IMG/VR virus record: IMGVR_UViG_2571042636_000010
DNA: 4,419 nt
Source: a virus
Taxonomy: Duplodnaviria > Heunggongvirae > Uroviricota > Caudoviricetes
Direction: 5' to 3' (one strand)
In this document: one piece after another, positions 394 through 4,419 of the stretch
How positions within the stretch are numbered: the stretch's first letter is position 1
Layout of the letters: each line of letters begins with the position of its first letter
The notes under the pieces: model-generated
The model's database searches: none
Told to the model about the DNA's origin: nothing
Seen by the model: only the letters and a program-made list of their open reading frames with translations
Program-made: the position numbers and the translations under genes

Positions 394-486
394 TTTTGTA
401 TCTCCATTATTTACGTGCGTGAATACCTCCGCTAATTCGGATGGTTTTCACGTTTTCTTATTTAATCTGGTGTTTTATTTGTGCTG

Positions 487-600
487 TTATTCGTCAGAGA
501 AAAAACGCTCAATCTTTTTCACTGAATGAATAATTCGCATAATGCCAATAGCGCAGATCACCGAAATAATCAGAACAAGCCATGACATAAATATGCTCAT
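487..600 (-). CDS. 37-aa hydrophobic small protein (putative single-pass membrane peptide)
   Basis: ATG at 600-598 overlaps the TGA stop (599-597) of the upstream 80-aa gene as an ATGA junction. Hand translation gives MSIFMSWLVLIISVICAIGIMRIIHSVKKIERFFSDE, with TAA stop at 489-487. About 18 hydrophobic residues are followed by a charged tail. Too short for the ORF track. Confidence 0.35.
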   Translation of the reverse strand: MSIFMSWLVLIISVICAIGIMRIIHSVKKIERFFSDE

Positions 601-839
601 ACGATATTCCCCAGTTTATACGGTTCAATGCGTTCTCCGCATTCTGCAGCACAGACGAGTTCGGAAAGTTCGTTAATTGCATCCAAATCGTCAGCGTAAA
701 AAGCCACGTCATAAAGGCTTCTGATTGCCCTTGCTAATGAATCATGGGCTGCGTGTTCTGCCTGGGCCCCTGATGTGTTTAGGCGAAAATAAAAACGCTC
801 AAGTGCTTTGTTGACAAGAGCTTTATATTCTTTGTCCAT
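597..839 (-). CDS. hypothetical small protein (80 aa from internal ATG)
   Basis: Part of track ORF 597..917. ATG at 839-837 follows the TAA stop of the upstream gene (852-850) by 10 nt, with an AAGGG Shine-Dalgarno-like motif 6 nt upstream. The longer start at ATG 917 would overlap the upstream gene by 68 nt. Begins MDKEYKALVNKALERFYFRL. No family recognised. Confidence 0.5.
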   Translation of the reverse strand: MDKEYKALVNKALERFYFRLNTSGAQAEHAAHDSLARAIRSLYDVAFYADDLDAINELSELVCAAECGERIEPYKLGNIV

Positions 840-849
840 CGCACACCCT

Positions 850-1137
850 TTAATCTGCCTTCTGGATTTCTGCTTCTGAATCCATACAAATAATTTCGAT
901 ATAGGGTTTATCGCCATTAACCTGACGAGCCTTTTCAGCTTCGCTAATGATTTCGCGTACGGTCTGGTACGGAAGTTCCACGATCAGTCGCGTGCCGTTC
1001 AGATAAACGTAAGTGGCTTCGGCGGCTCCGTTTTTACCCGCCGGAGCCACTCCATCAATAGCGGATGCACGTAATAACAGTTCACCGCGAAAATCAATAA
1101 AGCGGATAAATACACCTTGTGCATGGTCTTTGGTCAT
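850..1137 (-). CDS. hypothetical small protein (95 aa from internal ATG)
   Basis: Track ORF 850..1197 begins at a TTG. The first ATG is at 1137-1135, 10 nt after the TAA stop (1150-1148) of the upstream gene, so the genes are arranged like an operon. Begins MTKDHAQGVFIRFIDFRGELLLR. The ribosome-binding site is weak (GGGTG). No family recognised. Confidence 0.5.
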   Translation of the reverse strand: MTKDHAQGVFIRFIDFRGELLLRASAIDGVAPAGKNGAAEATYVYLNGTRLIVELPYQTVREIISEAEKARQVNGDKPYIEIICMDSEAEIQKAD

Positions 1138-1147
1138 AAAGCACCCG

Positions 1148-1498
1148 TTATAAGTCAGCCTGTTTAATAAAACTTTGCCCACGAAGCAGACGATCAACCG
1201 TGCGAAGCGCTTCGTATAATGTGAAATCCTGTCCGAACTGATTGTCTCCGCTGCTCAGCGCAAAAATGCGGTTTCCGGTAAACGGATTGCGCTGGCATTT
1301 GTGGACCACGATTCCGGCTTTCTCAATCAGCCAGGTGTGCTCGCCGATTTGTTTTACAGCGTGTCCGTCTGGTGTTGCGTGCGTTTCGCTCAGGCTGTAG
1401 CGAGAGCTGCTACGTGATGCACTGGTAGCGAAGCGGTTAGCGTGGCGTTCCGCCCCGTTGCGGAATCGCTGCTGTGAAGAATTACGTCGTTGCTTCAT
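1148..1498 (-). CDS. hypothetical protein with basic Ser/Arg/Gln-rich N-terminal region (116 aa; alternative starts give 136 or 160 aa)
   Basis: Track ORF 1148..1630 begins at a TTG (1630). In-frame ATGs are at 1558 and 1498. I chose 1498 (MKQRRNSSQQRFRNG...) because the longer forms overlap the divergent upstream region; the start is uncertain. The C-terminal half (HAVKQIGEHTWLIEKAGIVVHKCQRNPFTGNRIF...) looks like a folded domain. No family recognised. Confidence 0.45.
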   Translation of the reverse strand: MKQRRNSSQQRFRNGAERHANRFATSASRSSSRYSLSETHATPDGHAVKQIGEHTWLIEKAGIVVHKCQRNPFTGNRIFALSSGDNQFGQDFTLYEALRTVDRLLRGQSFIKQADL

Positions 1499-1640
1499 AC
1501 AAAAAATATCCTGCTGCTGTTGCGAATTTGTGCCGGGTTTTAGCCATGCCCGGCGCATGGTTTTGTGGTATTTTTCCACCGCCCGCAGTCTTGAAGGGGC
1601 TGTAAAGGGCGCGTGTTCAACTAACCACAAAGGAGTTGTT
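1499..1640. promoter_or_regulatory. putative divergent intergenic/control region between the leftward small-gene cluster and the rightward 155-aa gene
   Basis: A 142-bp gap if the starts at 1498 (-) and 1641 (+) are correct. Contains GC-rich dyad symmetry: GCCGGG (1532-1537) pairs with CCCGGC (1549-1554), and CCATG (1544-1548) pairs with CATGG (1556-1560). A TGgTATTTT extended -10-like motif sits at 1566-1574 on the + strand. No convincing -35 elements found by eye. Confidence 0.25.
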
Positions 1641-2108
1641 ATGGAATTAGATGCTTCTGTGTGTCTGCGAATTTTTGAAAAACACTACGAGCGAGTTGCT
1701 AAAACCTATCGTGAGGTGCTGGATAAAGAAACAGCCAACTCAGCATTTGTTGCTACTCGAGCATTGATTCTCCTTAAATTGGATTTGTTACTTGTCGAGT
1801 ATCGAAGAAATATTGATTCCAAGTGCGTAGTCCTCTTCGGGAAAAATGTGCTTTATCATTATCTTTTCACCCAAAAGGGCGTTTCATTGTCTGATGCCAA
1901 AAATATGTGTCTCCATGACATACTTATTGTTCTCTGGAATGATATTAATGCATATGTAATACCAGAGCATGTATCCGAGCGTATCCAGATTCTTTATAAG
2001 TACGAGCTCTCATCTCCAGTGCCTGATTTAAGTTATGAAGATGAAAGTCTGTTGCATTTTAAGGATTCTGCTTGGGATTTTTATCCTGCCGATACACGAC
2101 TGAATTAA
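1641..2108 (+). CDS. hypothetical protein, 155 aa, AT-rich accessory (moron-like) gene
   Basis: ATG at 1641 is preceded by AAAGGAG (1629-1635) with a 5-nt spacer, the strongest ribosome-binding site in the window. Frame is open to TAA at 2106-2108. My hand count over several 60-nt lines gives roughly 35-45% GC, against roughly 50-60% in the integrase and leftward genes. The track ORF 1458..2108 begins at a TTG and the extension overlaps the minus-strand gene, so the internal ATG is preferred. No family recognised. Confidence 0.6.
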   Translation: MELDASVCLRIFEKHYERVAKTYREVLDKETANSAFVATRALILLKLDLLLVEYRRNIDSKCVVLFGKNVLYHYLFTQKGVSLSDAKNMCLHDILIVLWNDINAYVIPEHVSERIQILYKYELSSPVPDLSYEDESLLHFKDSAWDFYPADTRLN

Positions 2109-2670
2109 GAAACTCATTGTTTCTATCTATTTCAGTCTGGTAGGCCTCTAACTCATGCCGTAATTGTTGTTGTCTTAGTGGTAACTTGTTGCGGCATTTC
2201 AATTCTGCTACAACGGTTTCCAAAAAACTTATCAGTTCTTCATCAGTGTATGAGCCAGCATAAATGTACGGTTTAGTGTTAGCGCATGTACAGTCTGCTG
2301 TTTCTTTAATGAGCATTGATTCGTCATCCATAATCTGTCGATAAAGTTCAAATGCTTCTTCGGCAGGAAACCTGAGCATGACGCCGCATACTGGTTCTAA
2401 AACCAATCCGAACGTTCCCTTTGCGTTATCCCGACAAAAATGTCCGTATTCATCGTCGGGATGCAGGGTGGCATCTTTCAAATCTTCGCCATTCTGAAGC
2501 TTTGATTTAAATGCCATCAGGTCAGCGAACGTTCTGTGTAATTCGTGGTAGTCAATGCTGATTTCAATCTGCGGTTTGCCCGGAAAAACCAGCAAAAGCT
2601 TCTGGTGTGGTTTTTCGTTTTTCAGGGTTTCCAGTCGTTCCAGTAGTGCTTTGTCTTCGTGGTTTGTCAT
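2059..2670 (-). CDS. hypothetical protein, 203 aa, translationally coupled to cox
   Basis: ATG at 2670-2668 lies 1 nt after the TGA stop of the Cox-like gene (2674-2672). The track ORF 2059..2796 starts at an upstream ATG inside cox in another frame, so I prefer the internal start (MTNHEDKALLERLETLKNEK...). The long open frame has a moderate GGGG ribosome-binding site. No catalytic or nucleotide-binding motif recognised. Confidence 0.6.
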   Translation of the reverse strand: MTNHEDKALLERLETLKNEKPHQKLLLVFPGKPQIEISIDYHELHRTFADLMAFKSKLQNGEDLKDATLHPDDEYGHFCRDNAKGTFGLVLEPVCGVMLRFPAEEAFELYRQIMDDESMLIKETADCTCANTKPYIYAGSYTDEELISFLETVVAELKCRNKLPLRQQQLRHELEAYQTEIDRNNEFLNSVVYRQDKNPKQNP

Positions 2671-2671
2671 T

Positions 2672-2953
2672 TCAAAGCCCCAGCCACAGCAACCATGCGT
2701 CTCGTTGTTCTTTCGGGCGTGCAAAGAATGCTTCGCGCATCGCTTTGTTGAACTCCGGGATGTAAACCCAGTTTTCAGCGCGTGAACGCAGTGCATTAGG
2801 GTTCTGCCATTTCACAATTGGAAGTTTGCCGTCAGAAATCATGTCGCTCACAGCAGATGCTGGTTTACCGATCATCTCGGCGAATTTGGGGCCGGGGACG
2901 GCATCAATTGGATAACCAATATTGATATATCGCTCTAGTTCCCTGTCTCTCAT
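2672..2953 (-). CDS. cox: Cox-like excisionase / early-promoter regulator (P2 Cox family)
   Basis: Translation ...FAEMIGKPASAVSDMISDGKLPIVKW...ENWVYIPEFN...ARPKEQRDAWLLWLGL matches my recollection of phage P2 Cox (FAKLIGK...GKLPV...WVYLP...RPKEIRDGWLMWLGL) in order and spacing. It is divergent from the repressor gene, as in P2. Start is either ATG 2953 or TTG 2959; GGAGA lies 5 nt before the TTG and 11 nt before the ATG. Confidence 0.7.
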   Translation of the reverse strand: MRDRELERYINIGYPIDAVPGPKFAEMIGKPASAVSDMISDGKLPIVKWQNPNALRSRAENWVYIPEFNKAMREAFFARPKEQRDAWLLWLGL

Positions 2954-3048
2954 GTGCAATAATTCTCCGTTTAGGGCTATTGGCGGCTTGTATCCGCTTA
3001 TAGCGGTGATGTGTATTGGTAGAAACTTCCACCCTTTAGGAGAATGTT
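2954..3048. promoter_or_regulatory. putative immunity switch region (divergent C / cox control, Pe and Pc-type promoters and operators)
   Basis: An ~90-bp gap between the divergent cox and C starts. The minus strand carries a TATAAG -10-like hexamer (2997-3002) about 40 nt upstream of the cox start. TATTGG occurs twice in direct orientation (2978-2983 and 3014-3019). A short dyad CCGC..GCGG sits at 2994-3006. Assignment rests on the P2/186 face-to-face promoter architecture; exact sites are not established. Confidence 0.35.
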
Positions 3049-3372
3049 ATGGTAGAGACTTCCACCCAGTCAAGAGGGATAGGGGAAAAAATCCGCATGA
3101 TTAGAGATGCTGAAGGTCTTAGCAGACAGCAATTCTTTGAATTGACGGGGATTCCTGCGGGGACGCAAAAGTATTATGAAACTGGACGGGTTGAAAAAAT
3201 AGGTAGTGATATTTTGCTAAAGATCACGCTTCATTCTCAATTTTCTAAATATGCCCTGTGGCTTATGACCGACAATATTGCGCCAGAATCAGGGCAGATT
3301 GCCCCGCCTCTCTCCCCTGATGGGCACGAAAATGCAGTAATGTCGCGCCGCTCCGTCCGCAAAACTGGTTAA
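3049..3372 (+). CDS. C: phage immunity repressor, P2 C-type (short helix-turn-helix repressor)
   Basis: ATG at 3049 with AGGAG (3036-3040) 8 nt upstream; TAA stop at 3370-3372. The 107-aa product contains LSRQQFFELTGIP (helix-turn-helix-like) and YALWLMTDNIAPESGQIAPPL, matching my recollection of P2 C (LSRQQLADLTGVP ... YTLWFMTNQIAPESGQIAPAL). Lies upstream of and co-directional with the integrase, as in P2. Confidence 0.75.
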   Translation: MVETSTQSRGIGEKIRMIRDAEGLSRQQFFELTGIPAGTQKYYETGRVEKIGSDILLKITLHSQFSKYALWLMTDNIAPESGQIAPPLSPDGHENAVMSRRSVRKTG

Positions 3373-3438: not shown

Positions 3439-4419
3439 ATGACGATTAAGAAGCTCGAAGGAGGGCAATATCAGGTGGATATTTACCCGCGTGGGCGTGA
3501 AGGCAAGCGCATACGCAGACGTTTCAAGAAAAAACAGGAAGCTATTCTGTTTGAGCGGTATGTGATGGCTAACGTCGAGAAAAAAGAATGGCTCGGCGCA
3601 AGCGTTGATCGCCGTACGCTTGGGGAGTTGCTGGAAATCTGGTGGCTGTTGCATGGTCAGACACTGGAGAACGGTGCAATCGAAAGACAACAACTGGAAA
3701 AGACAATCAGGGCGCTTGGTAATCCTGCCGTTAACCGGCTTGATAAGCGTGAAATTGCCAGGCATCGCGGTGAACGGCTTACAGATGGTATTAGCGCATC
3801 AACCATTAACCGCGATGTTTATCGTTTGTCCGGTATGTTTACCGCATTGAGTAAGCTTGGAGAATTTCGCGTTGAAAATCCCTGTCATGGTTTGCAGCCG
3901 TTACGGGAGGCACAGCCACCAATGACTTACCTTACAAAACAGGAAATCGCCCGATTGCTGGAATTTCTGGAGGGTGACAATCGCCGGGTGGCATTGCTGT
4001 GTCTCAGTACCGGGGCGCGGTGGAATGAGGGAAGCACGCTGCGGGCTGAGCAGGTCAATCATGGACGTGTGACCTTTCTGAAAACGAAGAACGGCAAAAA
4101 AAGGACGGTGCCGATTTCGGAAGTTCTGGAGCGGGAGATCAAAACCTGCGAGACGGGGCCGTTGTTCGATGTGAATTATGCTCAGTTCCGTGAGCAATTA
4201 CGGCGTGTAAAACCTGATTTACCACGGGGGCAGTCAACGCATGTGCTTCGCCACACGTTCGCCAGTTGGTTCATGATGAACGGAGGAAACATTATTGCGC
4301 TTCAGCAAATTATGGGTCATGCCAGCATTAAACAAACGATGGTTTATGCGCATCTTGCACCGGATTTTCTCCAGCACGCGATTACGTTAAATCCGCTTGG
4401 TGGAGGTCTGGGGATTTGA
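3439..4419 (+). CDS. int: site-specific tyrosine recombinase, P2/186-family phage integrase (complete, 326 aa)
   Basis: ATG at 3439 with GGAGG (3426-3430) 8 nt upstream; TGA stop at 4417-4419, the last bases of the window. The C-terminal catalytic region HVLRHTFASWFMMNGGNIIALQQIMGHASIKQTMVYAHL carries the tyrosine-recombinase R..H-x-x-R..Y signature, with LSTGARWNE upstream. The N-terminus MTIKKLEGGQYQVDIYPRGREGKRIRRRF resembles P2-type integrases. Confidence 0.9.
   Translation: MTIKKLEGGQYQVDIYPRGREGKRIRRRFKKKQEAILFERYVMANVEKKEWLGASVDRRTLGELLEIWWLLHGQTLENGAIERQQLEKTIRALGNPAVNRLDKREIARHRGERLTDGISASTINRDVYRLSGMFTALSKLGEFRVENPCHGLQPLREAQPPMTYLTKQEIARLLEFLEGDNRRVALLCLSTGARWNEGSTLRAEQVNHGRVTFLKTKNGKKRTVPISEVLEREIKTCETGPLFDVNYAQFREQLRRVKPDLPRGQSTHVLRHTFASWFMMNGGNIIALQQIMGHASIKQTMVYAHLAPDFLQHAITLNPLGGGLGI

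What the first reader, a model, noticed from the sequence alone, without database searches (positions are those of the whole stretch)
2059..2670. Unrecognised 203-aa gene translationally coupled to cox, where P2 and 186 carry different early genes
Its start codon lies 1 nt after the cox stop, so it is almost certainly co-translated with Cox from the early promoter. I recall short ORFs and gene B downstream of cox in P2, and cII after apl in 186; a 203-aa protein here matches neither to my recognition. It is also relatively AT-rich. It could be a lineage-specific early regulator or an induction-triggered accessory function.
Basis: partly seen in the sequence, partly recalled or inferred. Interest (0 to 1): 0.5.

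Follow-up and report, generated by a model that had tools for sequence, protein, structure and literature searches.

The report
Chimeric early gene paired with antisense cargo
The 203-codon gene after cox is real but is a recombinant fusion of two small prophage proteins, and its tail always sits tail-to-tail with an opposite-strand gene (ECs1072 family), an arrangement that most resembles a prophage defence gene with its own early-expressed antidote, although no function has been tested.

Summary
ORF 2059-2670 (-) starts at an ATG 1 nt after the cox TGA. It is under purifying selection and occurs unchanged in at least 9 E. coli contigs.

The window is the int-C-cox end of a P88-like (Xuanwuvirus) P2-family prophage. 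The gene is not 186 CII and matches nothing in Pfam, PADLOC or the solved-structure sequences. It has no homologue in 50,697 deposited phage genomes.

It is a three-part mosaic:
- The coupled start codon belongs to a 31-codon mini-ORF in relatives; a ~117-nt deletion joined it to the next gene.
- Residues 3-116 are the head of a narrow 121-173-aa family found after cox in enterobacterial prophages.
- Residues 117-203 are a helical module that elsewhere is a free-standing 71-97-aa protein.

That module is always convergent with, and 3'-overlaps, an ECs1072-family gene (here 1641-2108, +). The ECs1072 gene has a confidently predicted all-alpha fold with no structural match. It is driven by a conserved extended -10 promoter that points against the early operon.

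The slot is hypervariable and holds other uncharacterised convergent pairs.

Best reading, an inference at about 0.4: ECs1072 is a lysogen-expressed accessory or defence protein, and the early-operon partner is its lytic-phase neutraliser, as in the Listeria TERi system.

This is a new variant of a known kind. Interest is moderate.

The parts
2059..2670 (-). 203-aa chimeric early-operon gene (the finding); stop TAA at 2059-2061
   Evidence: The identical protein is called on 9 contigs. dN/dS against the E300010-type copy is 0.26.
2323..2670 (-). N-terminal 'head' domain (aa 1-116). It belongs to a narrow family of 121-173-aa post-cox proteins with invariant PGKPQ.EIS, ELHRTF and D.YGHFCR motifs.
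   Evidence: only two 50%-identity clusters among 1.84 billion representatives. Window 2332-2664 is 89% identical to the 135-aa gene of L006. dN/dS is 0.11-0.24.
2059..2322 (-). C-terminal helical module (aa 117-203). Elsewhere it is a free-standing 71-97-aa protein. M117 (ATG 2322-2320) aligns with the start Met of the free-standing 91-aa form.
   Evidence: P0034-P0038; unannotated 91-aa ORF in L005. AF2 predicts helices 143-159 and 163-196 at low confidence. dN/dS against L005 is 0.33.
2659..2674 (-). Coupling junction: cox TGA (2674-2672), 1 nt, then ATG-ACA-AAC. It is a ~117-nt deletion scar that joins the start of a 31-codon mini-ORF to codon 2-3 of the head-domain gene.
   Evidence: L004, L006, L047, L049 and L050 keep TGAAATGAC + mini-ORF + SD + ATGAATCAC.
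2307..2332 (-). Recombination joint between head-domain DNA and C-module/ECs1072 cassette DNA
   Evidence: homology to L005/L027 (free-standing module + ECs1072) runs 414-2307, and homology to L006 (135-aa gene) runs 2332-2664. Alignment.
1641..2108 (+). ECs1072-family gene (155 aa), convergent with the 203-aa gene and on the same strand as C and int
2059..2108 (.). 50-nt overlap of the 3' coding ends of the two convergent genes, with no terminator-like site between them
   Evidence: 0 terminator-like sites in 1400-3100. The same overlap of matched stretches recurs in 11 of 12 loci fetched by ECs1072 homology.
1532..1574 (+). Conserved promoter-like element upstream of the antisense cargo. It has an extended -10 TGnTAnnnT (TG 1566-67, TATTTT 1569-74) and two overlapping dyads: GCCGGG 1532-37 / CCCGGC 1549-54, and CCATGC 1544-49 / GCATGG 1555-60.
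   Evidence: invariant T.TG.TA...T columns; 18 distinct sequences upstream of unrelated cargo genes, with compensatory dyad variants CCACGC/GCGTGG and CCGGA/TCCGG. The function is inferred, not shown.
1575..1640 (+). Leader of the ECs1072 gene, with a conserved CAACCAACCACAAAGGA ribosome-binding region (AGGAG 1631-35)
2672..2953 (-). cox (93 aa), the first gene of the early operon in this phage
   Evidence: PF10743 E 8e-24 and phrog_272 E 5e-37
3044..3073 (-). Pe-like sigma-70 consensus match (TTGACT-18-TAACAT) pointing towards cox and overlapping the start of C
   Evidence: This is a consensus match only. The position fits the face-to-face Pe/Pc layout known for P2, which I cite from my own knowledge.
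3049..3372 (+). C-type immunity repressor (107 aa)
   Evidence: phrog_147 E 6e-31 and HTH_31
1148..1498 (-). DUF4761 gene, where the conserved early-operon backbone resumes downstream of the variable slot
   Evidence: PF15958 E 2e-69; backbone homology

Best explanation
SHOWN
- The 203-aa ORF is a genuine gene of the early (Pe-cox) operon of a P88-like P2-family prophage.
- It lies in a hypervariable slot. In different phages the slot sits just after cox, or between the C repressor gene and cox (upstream of cox in the lytic direction).
- The protein is a recombinant of three pieces: the cox-coupled start codon of a deleted mini-ORF, the head domain of a small post-cox protein family, and an 87-residue helical module.
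- That module is the obligate neighbour of the convergent ECs1072-family gene, and their 3' coding ends overlap.

INFERRED
- ECs1072 is transcribed from its own conserved extended -10 promoter. It runs on the lysogenic strand, against the early operon, so it would be made in the lysogen as an accessory protein, most likely one that excludes or aborts other phages.
- When C repression is lifted, Pe transcription and cox-coupled translation produce the 203-aa protein.
- Its C-terminal module would then bind and neutralise ECs1072. Head-on transcription and the complementary 3' RNA ends would also lower ECs1072 expression, so the phage's own lytic cycle is spared.
- The fused head domain would carry a separate, unknown early function, kept because the in-frame fusion is tolerated.

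The confidence of 0.4 applies to the inferred mechanism; the shown part I hold at about 0.9.
For: Gene reality
-.
- dN/dS: 0.11 (head) against L004, 0.24 against L006, 0.33 (module) against L005.

Mosaic origin
- Exhaustive phmmer splits the protein into residues 3-122 and 131-202, which hit different proteins.
- DNA breakpoints fall at 2307-2332 and at 2664.
- The mini-ORF deletion is shown.
- A free-standing 91-aa module lies next to ECs1072 in L005, unannotated.

Obligate pairing
- 11 of 12 loci fetched by ECs1072 homology alone carry the module as a convergent ORF with overlapping 3' ends.
- All 8 IMG/VR loci fetched by the module alone are contigs that also carry ECs1072.
- The pairing holds at 35-46% protein identity. 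It holds in four different positions: after cox, between C and cox, after a CII-like gene, and possibly in lambdoid Sp4.

Orientation rule
- In every context the module is co-oriented with the lytic operon and ECs1072 with C/int.

Own promoter
- TGnTAnnnT is invariant, with a conserved leader, in 18 distinct sequences.
- No terminator-like site lies between the convergent genes.

Protein character
- ECs1072 is a compact globular protein with invariant polar residues and a confident fold.
- The minimal partner is a 71-aa helical protein.

Precedent
- In Listeria phi10403S the defence gene terI lies on the opposite strand inside the early lytic module. It has its own promoter and overlaps the early gene anti-terI2, whose product binds it (bioRxiv 10.1101/2025.02.27.640495, read).
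- BstA/aba is another defence with cognate self-immunity (title and abstract of PMC8585504).
- The integrase-primase interval holds 8% of recognised P2 defence systems, and hotspot chimeras can be functional (PMC13586616).
- The founder gene ECs1072 appears in a table of significantly changing genes in uninduced O157 Sakai cultures (PMC2241611), which is weak evidence that it is expressed.
Against: - No expression, interaction or phenotype data exist for any member of these families.
- Neither protein, nor any other cargo of this slot, matches PADLOC, Pfam or a solved structure. 'Defence' therefore rests on architecture and variability alone.
- Co-inheritance of the module and ECs1072 is partly trivial, because their coding ends physically overlap.
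- The promoter is a motif-level inference, and its overlapping dyads suggest it is regulated rather than constitutive.
- In the sister pair (135-aa head protein with a 60-aa antisense gene) the size relation is reversed. The early gene looks like the effector there, so the roles may be the other way round.
- The 203-aa AF2 model is poor (pLDDT 58.8).
- In Brenneria (L026) the module is a 2.2-kb-distant fragment. ECs1072 can therefore persist without an intact partner next to it.
Confidence: 0.4

Rival explanations
1. The roles are reversed. The early-operon proteins (head domain and/or module) are the active agents: host take-over or counter-defence factors made immediately on infection or induction. 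The antisense lysogen-expressed gene (ECs1072, or the 60-aa and 78-aa genes in sister cassettes) is a safety catch. It neutralises leaky early expression in the lysogen, by protein binding and by antisense transcription.
For: - Small, hypervariable, unrecognisable proteins at the very start of the early operon are typical of counter-defence genes (my own knowledge).
- In the sister cassette the early protein is the larger, motif-bearing one (135 aa, invariant D.YGHFCR) and the antisense gene is only 60 aa.
- The head domain stays under purifying selection without its usual 60-aa partner.
Against: - For the ECs1072 cassette the minimal early partner is a 71-aa helical hairpin. That looks like a binder rather than an effector, whereas ECs1072 is the globular, motif-rich protein.
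- The antisense genes share a conserved promoter and leader, as expected for cargo meant to be expressed.
Confidence: 0.2
2. The pair forms a lysis-lysogeny control module. The conserved antisense promoter at 1532-1574 would work like lambda pRE or 186 pE: it sits downstream of the Cro/Apl analogue and reads back through cox into C and int. The 203-aa protein and ECs1072 would then tune the switch, which is the first reader's 'early regulator'.
For: - The promoter points towards C and int with no terminator-like site in between.
- Two dyads with compensatory changes overlap its -35/spacer region, as for a regulated promoter.
- The gene occupies the place that cII holds in 186. In L024 the module follows a CII-family gene (PF06892).
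Against: - There is no similarity to CII or to any DNA-binding family.
- The promoter element occurs with many unrelated cargo pairs, and in phages that lack both the head domain and the module. Neither can therefore be its dedicated regulator.
- Close relatives (P88_4B11, PhiR44_2, Shae_phiSM) lack the whole unit and are deposited as complete phage genomes with an integrase and a C-type repressor. It is therefore accessory, not core to the switch.
Confidence: 0.12
3. The fusion is a tolerated by-product of hotspot recombination. Only the C-terminal module matters, possibly translated on its own from M117. The head domain is along for the ride or decaying, so the 203-aa protein has no function as a unit.
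For: - Both parts exist and evidently work separately elsewhere.
- The joint coincides with the start codon of the free-standing module.
- The head family shows at least five different C-terminal tails, so tails are swapped freely at this boundary.
Against: - The fusion ORF is intact in two lineages that differ at 14 positions. In the head part 7 changes are synonymous and 3 non-synonymous (dN/dS 0.11). These numbers are small.
- There is no Shine-Dalgarno-like sequence before M117 (read from the sequence).
- The fusion is found behind two different cox types, in E. coli and in E. albertii.
Confidence: 0.1

Closest known systems
TERi system of Listeria phage phi10403S (TerI with anti-TerI1/anti-TerI2; bioRxiv 10.1101/2025.02.27.640495)
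   Same: - A gene on the opposite strand sits inside the early lytic module and has its own promoter.
- It overlaps an early-operon gene.
- In TERi the early gene's product binds and neutralises the antisense-encoded defence protein during induction.
- The strand layout, the overlap and the position in the early operon are the same here.
   Different: - No sequence relation is expected or was tested: TerI is 65 aa and from a Gram-positive siphovirus, whereas ECs1072 is 155 aa.
- Here only the 3' ends overlap (about 50 nt), not the whole ORF.
- Expression, interaction and terminase targeting are unknown here.
ECs1072 family phage-associated protein (NCBIfam NF033230; phrog_5286), for the partner gene
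   Same: The convergent 155-aa gene is a member by score (111 bits against a cut-off of 70). All 17 aligned homologues match phrog_5286.
   Different: - The family has no assigned function.
- The founder gene lies in a lambdoid prophage (Sp4 of O157 Sakai), not a P2-like one.
- The finding itself (the 203-aa gene) is not a member; it is the neighbour.
P2-family hotspots of accessory and defence genes (Rousset et al. 2022, PMC9122126; PMC13586616)
   Same: - Variable cargo sits between conserved backbone genes, exchanged by recombination at conserved flanks.
- Chimeras form at hotspots.
- The integrase-primase interval is listed as a minor defence hotspot, with 8% of P2 systems.
   Different: - The described major hotspots are gpA-portal and Z/fun. 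A preprint adds a tail-CI hotspot.
- In the two later papers I searched I found no description of a slot inside the early operon next to cox, built of convergent overlapping gene pairs with a shared antisense promoter. I did not search the text of Rousset et al. 2022.
- None of its cargo is a recognised defence system.
186 CII and the P2 post-cox ORFs
   Same: Same map position: the first gene or genes after the Cox/Apl gene in the early operon.
   Different: - No match to PF06892 (Phage_CP76) or any Pfam family.
- No tblastn match in 50,697 phage records.
- Close relatives of this phage carry a 68-aa membrane protein here instead.
BstA/aba, a prophage defence with cognate self-immunity (PMC8585504)
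   Same: The concept that a prophage-encoded abortive defence needs a linked element that spares the prophage's own lytic cycle.
   Different: - I recall from the paper, whose text I did not read here, that aba is a DNA element inside bstA, not a protein.
- There is no sequence or architectural similarity.

Membership tests
186 CII (Pfam PF06892 Phage_CP76) | Sequence match to the CII family profile | tested here: not met
   0 Pfam families at E <= 0.1 for the 203-aa protein; none among 15 homologues.
Post-cox 121-173-aa head-domain family (unnamed; P0002-P0032, P0033) | Alignment over about 115 residues with invariant PGKPQ.EIS, ELHRTF and D.YGHFCR | tested here: met
   residues 3-122 are 57-86% identical to the enterobacterial members and 32% identical to P0033 (E 1e-14).
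Post-cox head-domain family | Position directly downstream of cox in P88-like prophages, paired with a convergent small gene | tested here: met
   the 135-aa form pairs with a 60-aa gene and the 164-aa form with a 78-aa gene. Here the partner is ECs1072.
C-module family (unnamed; P0034-P0038, weakly phrog_1744) | Motif P.I..G.L.D.ELI.FL followed by a helical region ending in N..I..V | tested here: met
   residues 131-202 are 35-43% identical to five proteins and 84% identical to the free-standing 91-aa ORF. phrog_1744 scores only E 0.005.
C-module / ECs1072 two-gene cassette | Convergent orientation with overlapping 3' coding ends | tested here: met
   11 of 12 loci; 8 of 8 reciprocal. The window overlap is 2059-2108.
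ECs1072 family (NF033230), partner gene only | Score above NCBIfam's curated cut-off | tested here: met
   111 bits against a cut-off of 70, for 1641-2108 (+). The 203-aa protein itself does not match.
Known anti-phage defence systems (PADLOC-DB 2.0) | Match to any defence-protein profile | tested here: not met
   no family for the 203-aa protein, and only chance-level Cas7f matches (E 0.01) for ECs1072; other cargo of the slot is also negative. Systems described after 2023 are not covered.
TERi-like defence with self-immunity (architecture) | Candidate defence gene on the opposite strand inside the early lytic operon, overlapping an early gene | tested here: met
   Searches give the layout. 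One search gives the description of TERi.
TERi-like defence with self-immunity (architecture) | Own promoter that is active in the lysogen | tested here: inconclusive
   A conserved TGnTAnnnT motif and leader are present, but there are no transcript data. The generic promoter scan did not call it.
TERi-like defence with self-immunity (architecture) | The early-gene product binds and neutralises the antisense-encoded protein, which blocks other phages | not testable with these tools
   Needs interaction and plaque assays. No complex prediction tool was available.
TERi-like defence with self-immunity (homology) | Sequence similarity to TerI or anti-TerI | not tested
   The sequences were not at hand. 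Sizes and hosts differ (65 aa against 155 aa).
Type II toxin-antitoxin module | Two co-transcribed adjacent genes on one strand | tested here: not met
   The genes are convergent. There is no TA family hit in Pfam.
HEPN-type RNase (considered for ECs1072 because of a K/R-N-x-x-x-H motif at residues 68-73) | Rx4-6H motif in a four-helix HEPN fold, with a profile or fold match | tested here: inconclusive
   - The motif is GKN.L.H in most members and GRNALTH in the Dickeya member.
- No HEPN family appears in Pfam for any of 17 members.
- I treat it as not a member.

The most novel reading that the evidence does not exclude
Temperate enterobacterial phages of the P2 family, and possibly lambdoid ones such as Sp4, carry an undescribed hypervariable slot inside the early lytic operon.

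A conserved, portable, operator-bearing promoter fires against the operon and drives diverse lysogen-expressed cargo genes. Each cargo gene overlaps tail-to-tail with a cognate early-operon gene that switches it off, at both the protein and the RNA level, when the prophage itself goes lytic.

This would be a general 'defence plus built-in self-immunity by convergent overlap' design. It would contain several new protein families, including ECs1072 with a fold unlike any solved structure, and modular head-tail antidotes such as this 203-aa chimera.
Probability: 0.3. Interest if true: 0.7.

Novelty: new variant of a known kind. Interest (0 to 1): 0.5.

Why it matters
Several things would follow if the architecture-based reading is right.

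- **A small test system.** The locus gives a two-gene system, 71-203 aa plus 155 aa, for studying how prophages keep a defence from harming their own induction. So far that problem is solved experimentally only for a few systems, such as BstA/aba and TERi.
- **A searchable landmark.** The roughly 45-nt promoter element marks a slot that current defence finders see as empty. At least six unrelated, uncharacterised gene pairs already sit behind it.
- **A fold worth solving.** ECs1072 is confidently predicted yet unmatched.
- **A natural example of hotspot recombination.** The 203-aa chimera shows recombination at a hotspot fusing modules in frame.
- **Annotation fixes.** Two pipeline misses were found: an unannotated 91-aa partner ORF, and a probably spurious reverse-strand gene in a Yersinia phage.

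Tried and rejected
**203-aa protein: no assignment from family or structure searches**
- Pfam, PHROGs, NCBIfam and PADLOC gave nothing usable. The weak phrog_1744 and PRK04325 hits lie on the coiled-coil-like tail.
- Profile searches of solved-structure sequences with the head, module and ECs1072 alignments returned only chance or coiled-coil hits (NEMO, SNAP-25).

**ECs1072**

**Other negative searches**
- tblastn of both proteins against 50,697 phage genomes: no match.
- Rfam scan of the window: nothing.
- The generic promoter/terminator scan did not call the ECs1072 promoter and found no terminators.

**Ideas I dropped**
- My guess that the 155-aa cargo of L007 is YegP-like was not supported by Pfam.
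- The idea that the promoter element is the displaced Pc promoter was dropped. The C-proximal switch DNA (window 2984-3073) stays next to C in the phages where the cassette lies between C and cox.
- The two dyads cannot form an H-type pseudoknot: the loop lengths of 0 and 1 nt are sterically implausible. They are more simply an operator.

**Limits of coverage**
- The genome-contig scan gave only 2 loci, because that collection holds one genome per species.
Full report
**1. What the window is**

The window is the left end of a P2-family prophage.

| Coordinates | Strand | Feature |
|---|---|---|
| 3439-4419 | + | integrase |
| 3049-3372 | + | C-type repressor |
| 2672-2953 | - | cox, 93 aa (PF10743, E 8e-24) |
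| 2059-2670 | - | the 203-aa ORF of the finding |
| 1641-2108 | + | a 155-aa ORF |
| 1148-1498 | - | DUF4761 |
| 850-1140 | - | a phrog_3800 gene |
| 597-917 | - | DUF4754 |

- The nearest deposited phages are Xuanwuvirus (P88-like) members at 85-89% DNA identity over the backbone.
- The same arrangement, with the identical 203-aa protein, is found on 9 E. coli contigs. In five of the six places shown it lies next to a citrate-synthase-family gene followed by a PrpD-family gene, probably prpC and prpD.

**2.

- The ATG at 2670 lies 1 nt after the cox TGA.
- The gene is mildly AT-rich. GC is 0.423 overall and 0.386 in its last third, against 0.50 in cox.
- It is a real coding gene. dN/dS is 0.26 against a 96%-identical copy in another prophage lineage, 0.24 for the head against a 135-aa relative, and 0.33 for the tail against a free-standing relative.
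- The upstream ATG at 2796 is not the start, for three reasons:
  - That stretch is cox read in another frame.
  - In prophages with a different cox, the homologous ORF opens only 7 codons before its ATG.
  - DNA homology to those copies ends at 2664.

**3. It sits in a replacement slot**

- P88_4B11, PhiR44_2 and Shae_phiSM carry only a 68-aa membrane protein, plus tiny ORFs, between cox and DUF4761.
- E. coli genomes with the same backbone carry other contents in this slot:
  - the same two genes behind a 175-aa Cox (E300010);
  - a 135-aa gene convergent with a 60-aa gene;
  - an unrelated 117-aa/155-aa convergent pair.
- Neither window protein has a tblastn match in 50,697 deposited phage genomes.

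**4. The protein is a mosaic**

An exhaustive phmmer search of 1.84 billion representatives found only 7 relatives, and they fall into two disjoint sets.
- Residues 3-122 match a 135-aa protein at 81% and a 131-aa protein at 32%.
- Residues 131-202 match five other proteins of 71-152 aa at 35-43%.

*The head.*
- The head family occurs in E. coli, Salmonella, Citrobacter and Yersinia.
- It keeps residues 1 to about 115 and carries at least five different C-terminal tails.

*The DNA breakpoints.*
- Window 2332-2664 is 89% identical to the 135-aa gene.
- Window 414-2307 is 88-95% identical to loci that carry a free-standing tail module next to ECs1072.
- The joint at 2307-2332 coincides with that free-standing gene's start codon, so M117 aligns with its initiator Met.
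- PGAP left that 91-aa gene unannotated in strain CFIAFB20180511.

*The 5' end is also derived.*
- In L004, L006, L047, L049 and L050 the coupled TGAAATGAC opens a 31-codon mini-ORF (MTKLFLTQITNHFRRRYFKHGQLVGYITLPE).
- That mini-ORF is followed by a Shine-Dalgarno sequence and the head gene (MNHKNK...).
- The window has lost about 117 nt, which joins ATG-AC to AAC-CAC.
- The tight coupling to cox is therefore inherited from the mini-ORF.

**5. The tail module and ECs1072 form a conserved cassette**

The + strand gene is an ECs1072-family protein (NF033230, 111 bits against a cut-off of 70; phrog_5286).

I built HMMs of the head, the module and ECs1072, and scanned six-frame ORFs of all fetched loci.
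- Of 12 loci retrieved by ECs1072 homology alone, 11 have the module as a convergent ORF whose 3' end overlaps that of ECs1072.
- The exception is Brenneria, which has only a module fragment 2.2 kb away.
- In the reverse direction, all 8 IMG/VR loci retrieved by the module alone are ECs1072 contigs.

The pairing survives down to 35% identity and in several contexts:

| Context | Module form |
|---|---|
| After cox (window) | fused, 203 aa |
| After cox (L021) | 129 aa |
| After a CII-family gene (L024) | 97 aa |
| Between C and cox (Dickeya L016) | 71 aa |
| Between C and cox (L030-32) | ORF of up to 159 aa; start uncertain |

In every case the module runs with the lytic operon and ECs1072 runs with C and int.

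When the module is instead at the N-terminus of a longer protein (L014, L020), the convergent partner is a different 63-64-aa gene. The 3' portion of the early gene therefore travels with the antisense gene.

**6. The antisense cargo has a conserved promoter**

A roughly 45-nt element (window 1532-1574) precedes ECs1072.
- It also precedes unrelated antisense cargo in 18 distinct sequences, including Salmonella phage SEN5 and Yersinia phage vB_YenM_42.18.
- Its invariant positions spell an extended -10, TGnTAnnnT.
- Upstream lie two overlapping dyads, each with compensatory variants:

| Dyad | Common form | Variant |
|---|---|---|
| inner | CCATGC/GCATGG | CCACGC/GCGTGG |
| outer | GCCGGG/CCCGGC | GCCGGA/TCCGGC |

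- The inner dyad is centred near -29, where an operator would sit.
- A conserved leader and ribosome-binding region follow.
- No terminator-like site separates the convergent genes or lies between ECs1072 and C.

That this element is a promoter is an inference from the motif, not a measurement.

**7. What the proteins look like**

- ECs1072 folds confidently as an all-alpha globule (pLDDT 86.6, pTM 0.85).
- It has invariant R40, K46, R55, D59, H73, Y74, K79, D93 and W145.
- The 203-aa model is poor. It suggests an alpha/beta head and a two-helix tail.
- No Pfam, PADLOC or solved-structure sequence match exists for any part, nor for any other cargo of the slot.

**8. Mechanism**

*Shown:* the gene structure, its mosaic origin, the obligate convergent pairing, the orientation rule, and the conserved promoter-like element.

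*Inferred:*
- ECs1072 is made in the lysogen.
- The early operon, on derepression, makes the 203-aa protein.
- The tail of that protein neutralises ECs1072, while head-on transcription and the 50-nt complementary 3' ends depress its expression.

The closest precedent is the Listeria phi10403S TERi system. There the defence gene lies on the opposite strand within the early lytic module, has its own promoter, and overlaps an early gene whose product binds it.

I put this reading at about 0.4. The rivals are reversed roles (0.2), a switch-control module with a pRE/pE-like promoter (0.12), and a functionless fusion (0.1).

**9. Comparison with what is known**

- The gene is not CII and matches no other Pfam family.
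- The slot falls within the integrase-primase interval, which a 2026 survey lists as a minor defence hotspot (8% of P2 systems) and where chimeras were shown to function.
- In the two hotspot papers I searched, I found no description of this specific slot, its convergent-pair construction or its shared promoter.
- The founder ECs1072 (now ECs_5703) lies antisense in the pR operon of lambdoid Sp4, after a gene in the cII position. An unannotated convergent ORF there carries a module-like motif (E 1.4e-4 in a small search).

**10. Verdict**

This is a real gene and a new variant of a known kind, namely prophage hotspot cargo. It is chimeric, its function is untested, and its interest is moderate (0.5).

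Noticed in passing
window 1532-1574 (also L037 2501-2546 and L038 2485-2545): A conserved roughly 45-nt element carries an invariant extended -10 (TGnTAnnnT) and two overlapping dyads that show compensatory changes. It lies upstream of unrelated antisense cargo genes in 18 distinct sequences from several Peduoviridae genera. What binds the dyads is unknown.
   Followed up: partly
L005 3662-3937 (-), E. coli CFIAFB20180511: A 91-aa ORF, the free-standing form of the C-terminal module, overlaps the stop of the 175-aa cox by 4 nt. It is not annotated in RefSeq, so the ECs1072 gene looks solitary there when it is not.
   Followed up: yes
L047 2384-2479 (same sequence in L004, L006, L049, L050); deleted in the window at 2664/2665: A 31-codon mini-ORF is translationally coupled to cox (MTKLFLTQITNHFRRRYFKHGQLVGYITLPE). 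Its RRYFK.G.L.GY motif recurs as the C-terminal tail of the 148-173-aa variants of the head-domain family (P0002, P0009, P0012, P0028).
   Followed up: partly
L004 4377-4449, L006 3942-4014, L007 4162-4234 (match window 2663-2735): Prophages with a 175-aa Cox keep a 73-nt remnant of the 3' end of the 93-aa cox type, at 90-95% identity, just upstream of the variable slot. It is a recombination scar that marks the slot's right-hand boundary.
   Followed up: partly
L038 2547-3212 (Yersinia phage vB_YenM_42.18 gp08): The annotated 221-aa reverse-strand gene has a low-complexity, implausible sequence. After the promoter element, the + strand holds a short ORF (MSNTEDEV...) and a 156-aa ORF with a long hydrophobic stretch suggesting about two membrane helices (2733-3203). 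These look like the real cargo.
   Followed up: no
L055 29114-29816 (E. coli O157 Sakai prophage Sp4): The family founder ECs1072 (now ECs_5703) lies antisense inside the lambdoid early-right operon, between a gene in the cII position and the replication gene. An unannotated convergent ORF (MSNDKK...PHIWRGGLSDVELAEWL) weakly matches the module HMM and overlaps it by about 310 nt.
   Followed up: partly
window 1842-1859 (ECs1072 residues 68-73): The motif G-K/R-N-x-L-x-H, with invariant G67, L71 and H73, resembles the HEPN Rx4-6H motif. No profile or fold search supports HEPN membership.
   Followed up: partly
P0031 (184 aa, on a 932-bp Logan contig): An apparent single ORF fuses a Cox domain to the head domain through the ...HGCCGWGFEMTNH... 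stretch. It is probably a frameshift or assembly error at the coupling junction, but a natural read-through variant is not excluded.
   Followed up: no
L006 3242-3424, L047-L054 2909-3091, L051 2989-3225: The 135-aa head-domain gene is always followed, tail-to-tail, by a 60-aa antisense gene, in four different immunity/cox contexts including Yersinia. The 164-aa variant is followed by a 78-aa gene. These are further uncharacterised convergent pairs.
   Followed up: partly
window 3044-3073 (-) and 3006-3018: A Pe-like promoter match (TTGACT-18-TAACAT) overlaps the start of C, and a CCGCTTATAGCGG dyad lies just upstream of C. This C-proximal DNA (2984-3073) stays beside C in phages where the cassette separates C from cox.
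   Followed up: partly
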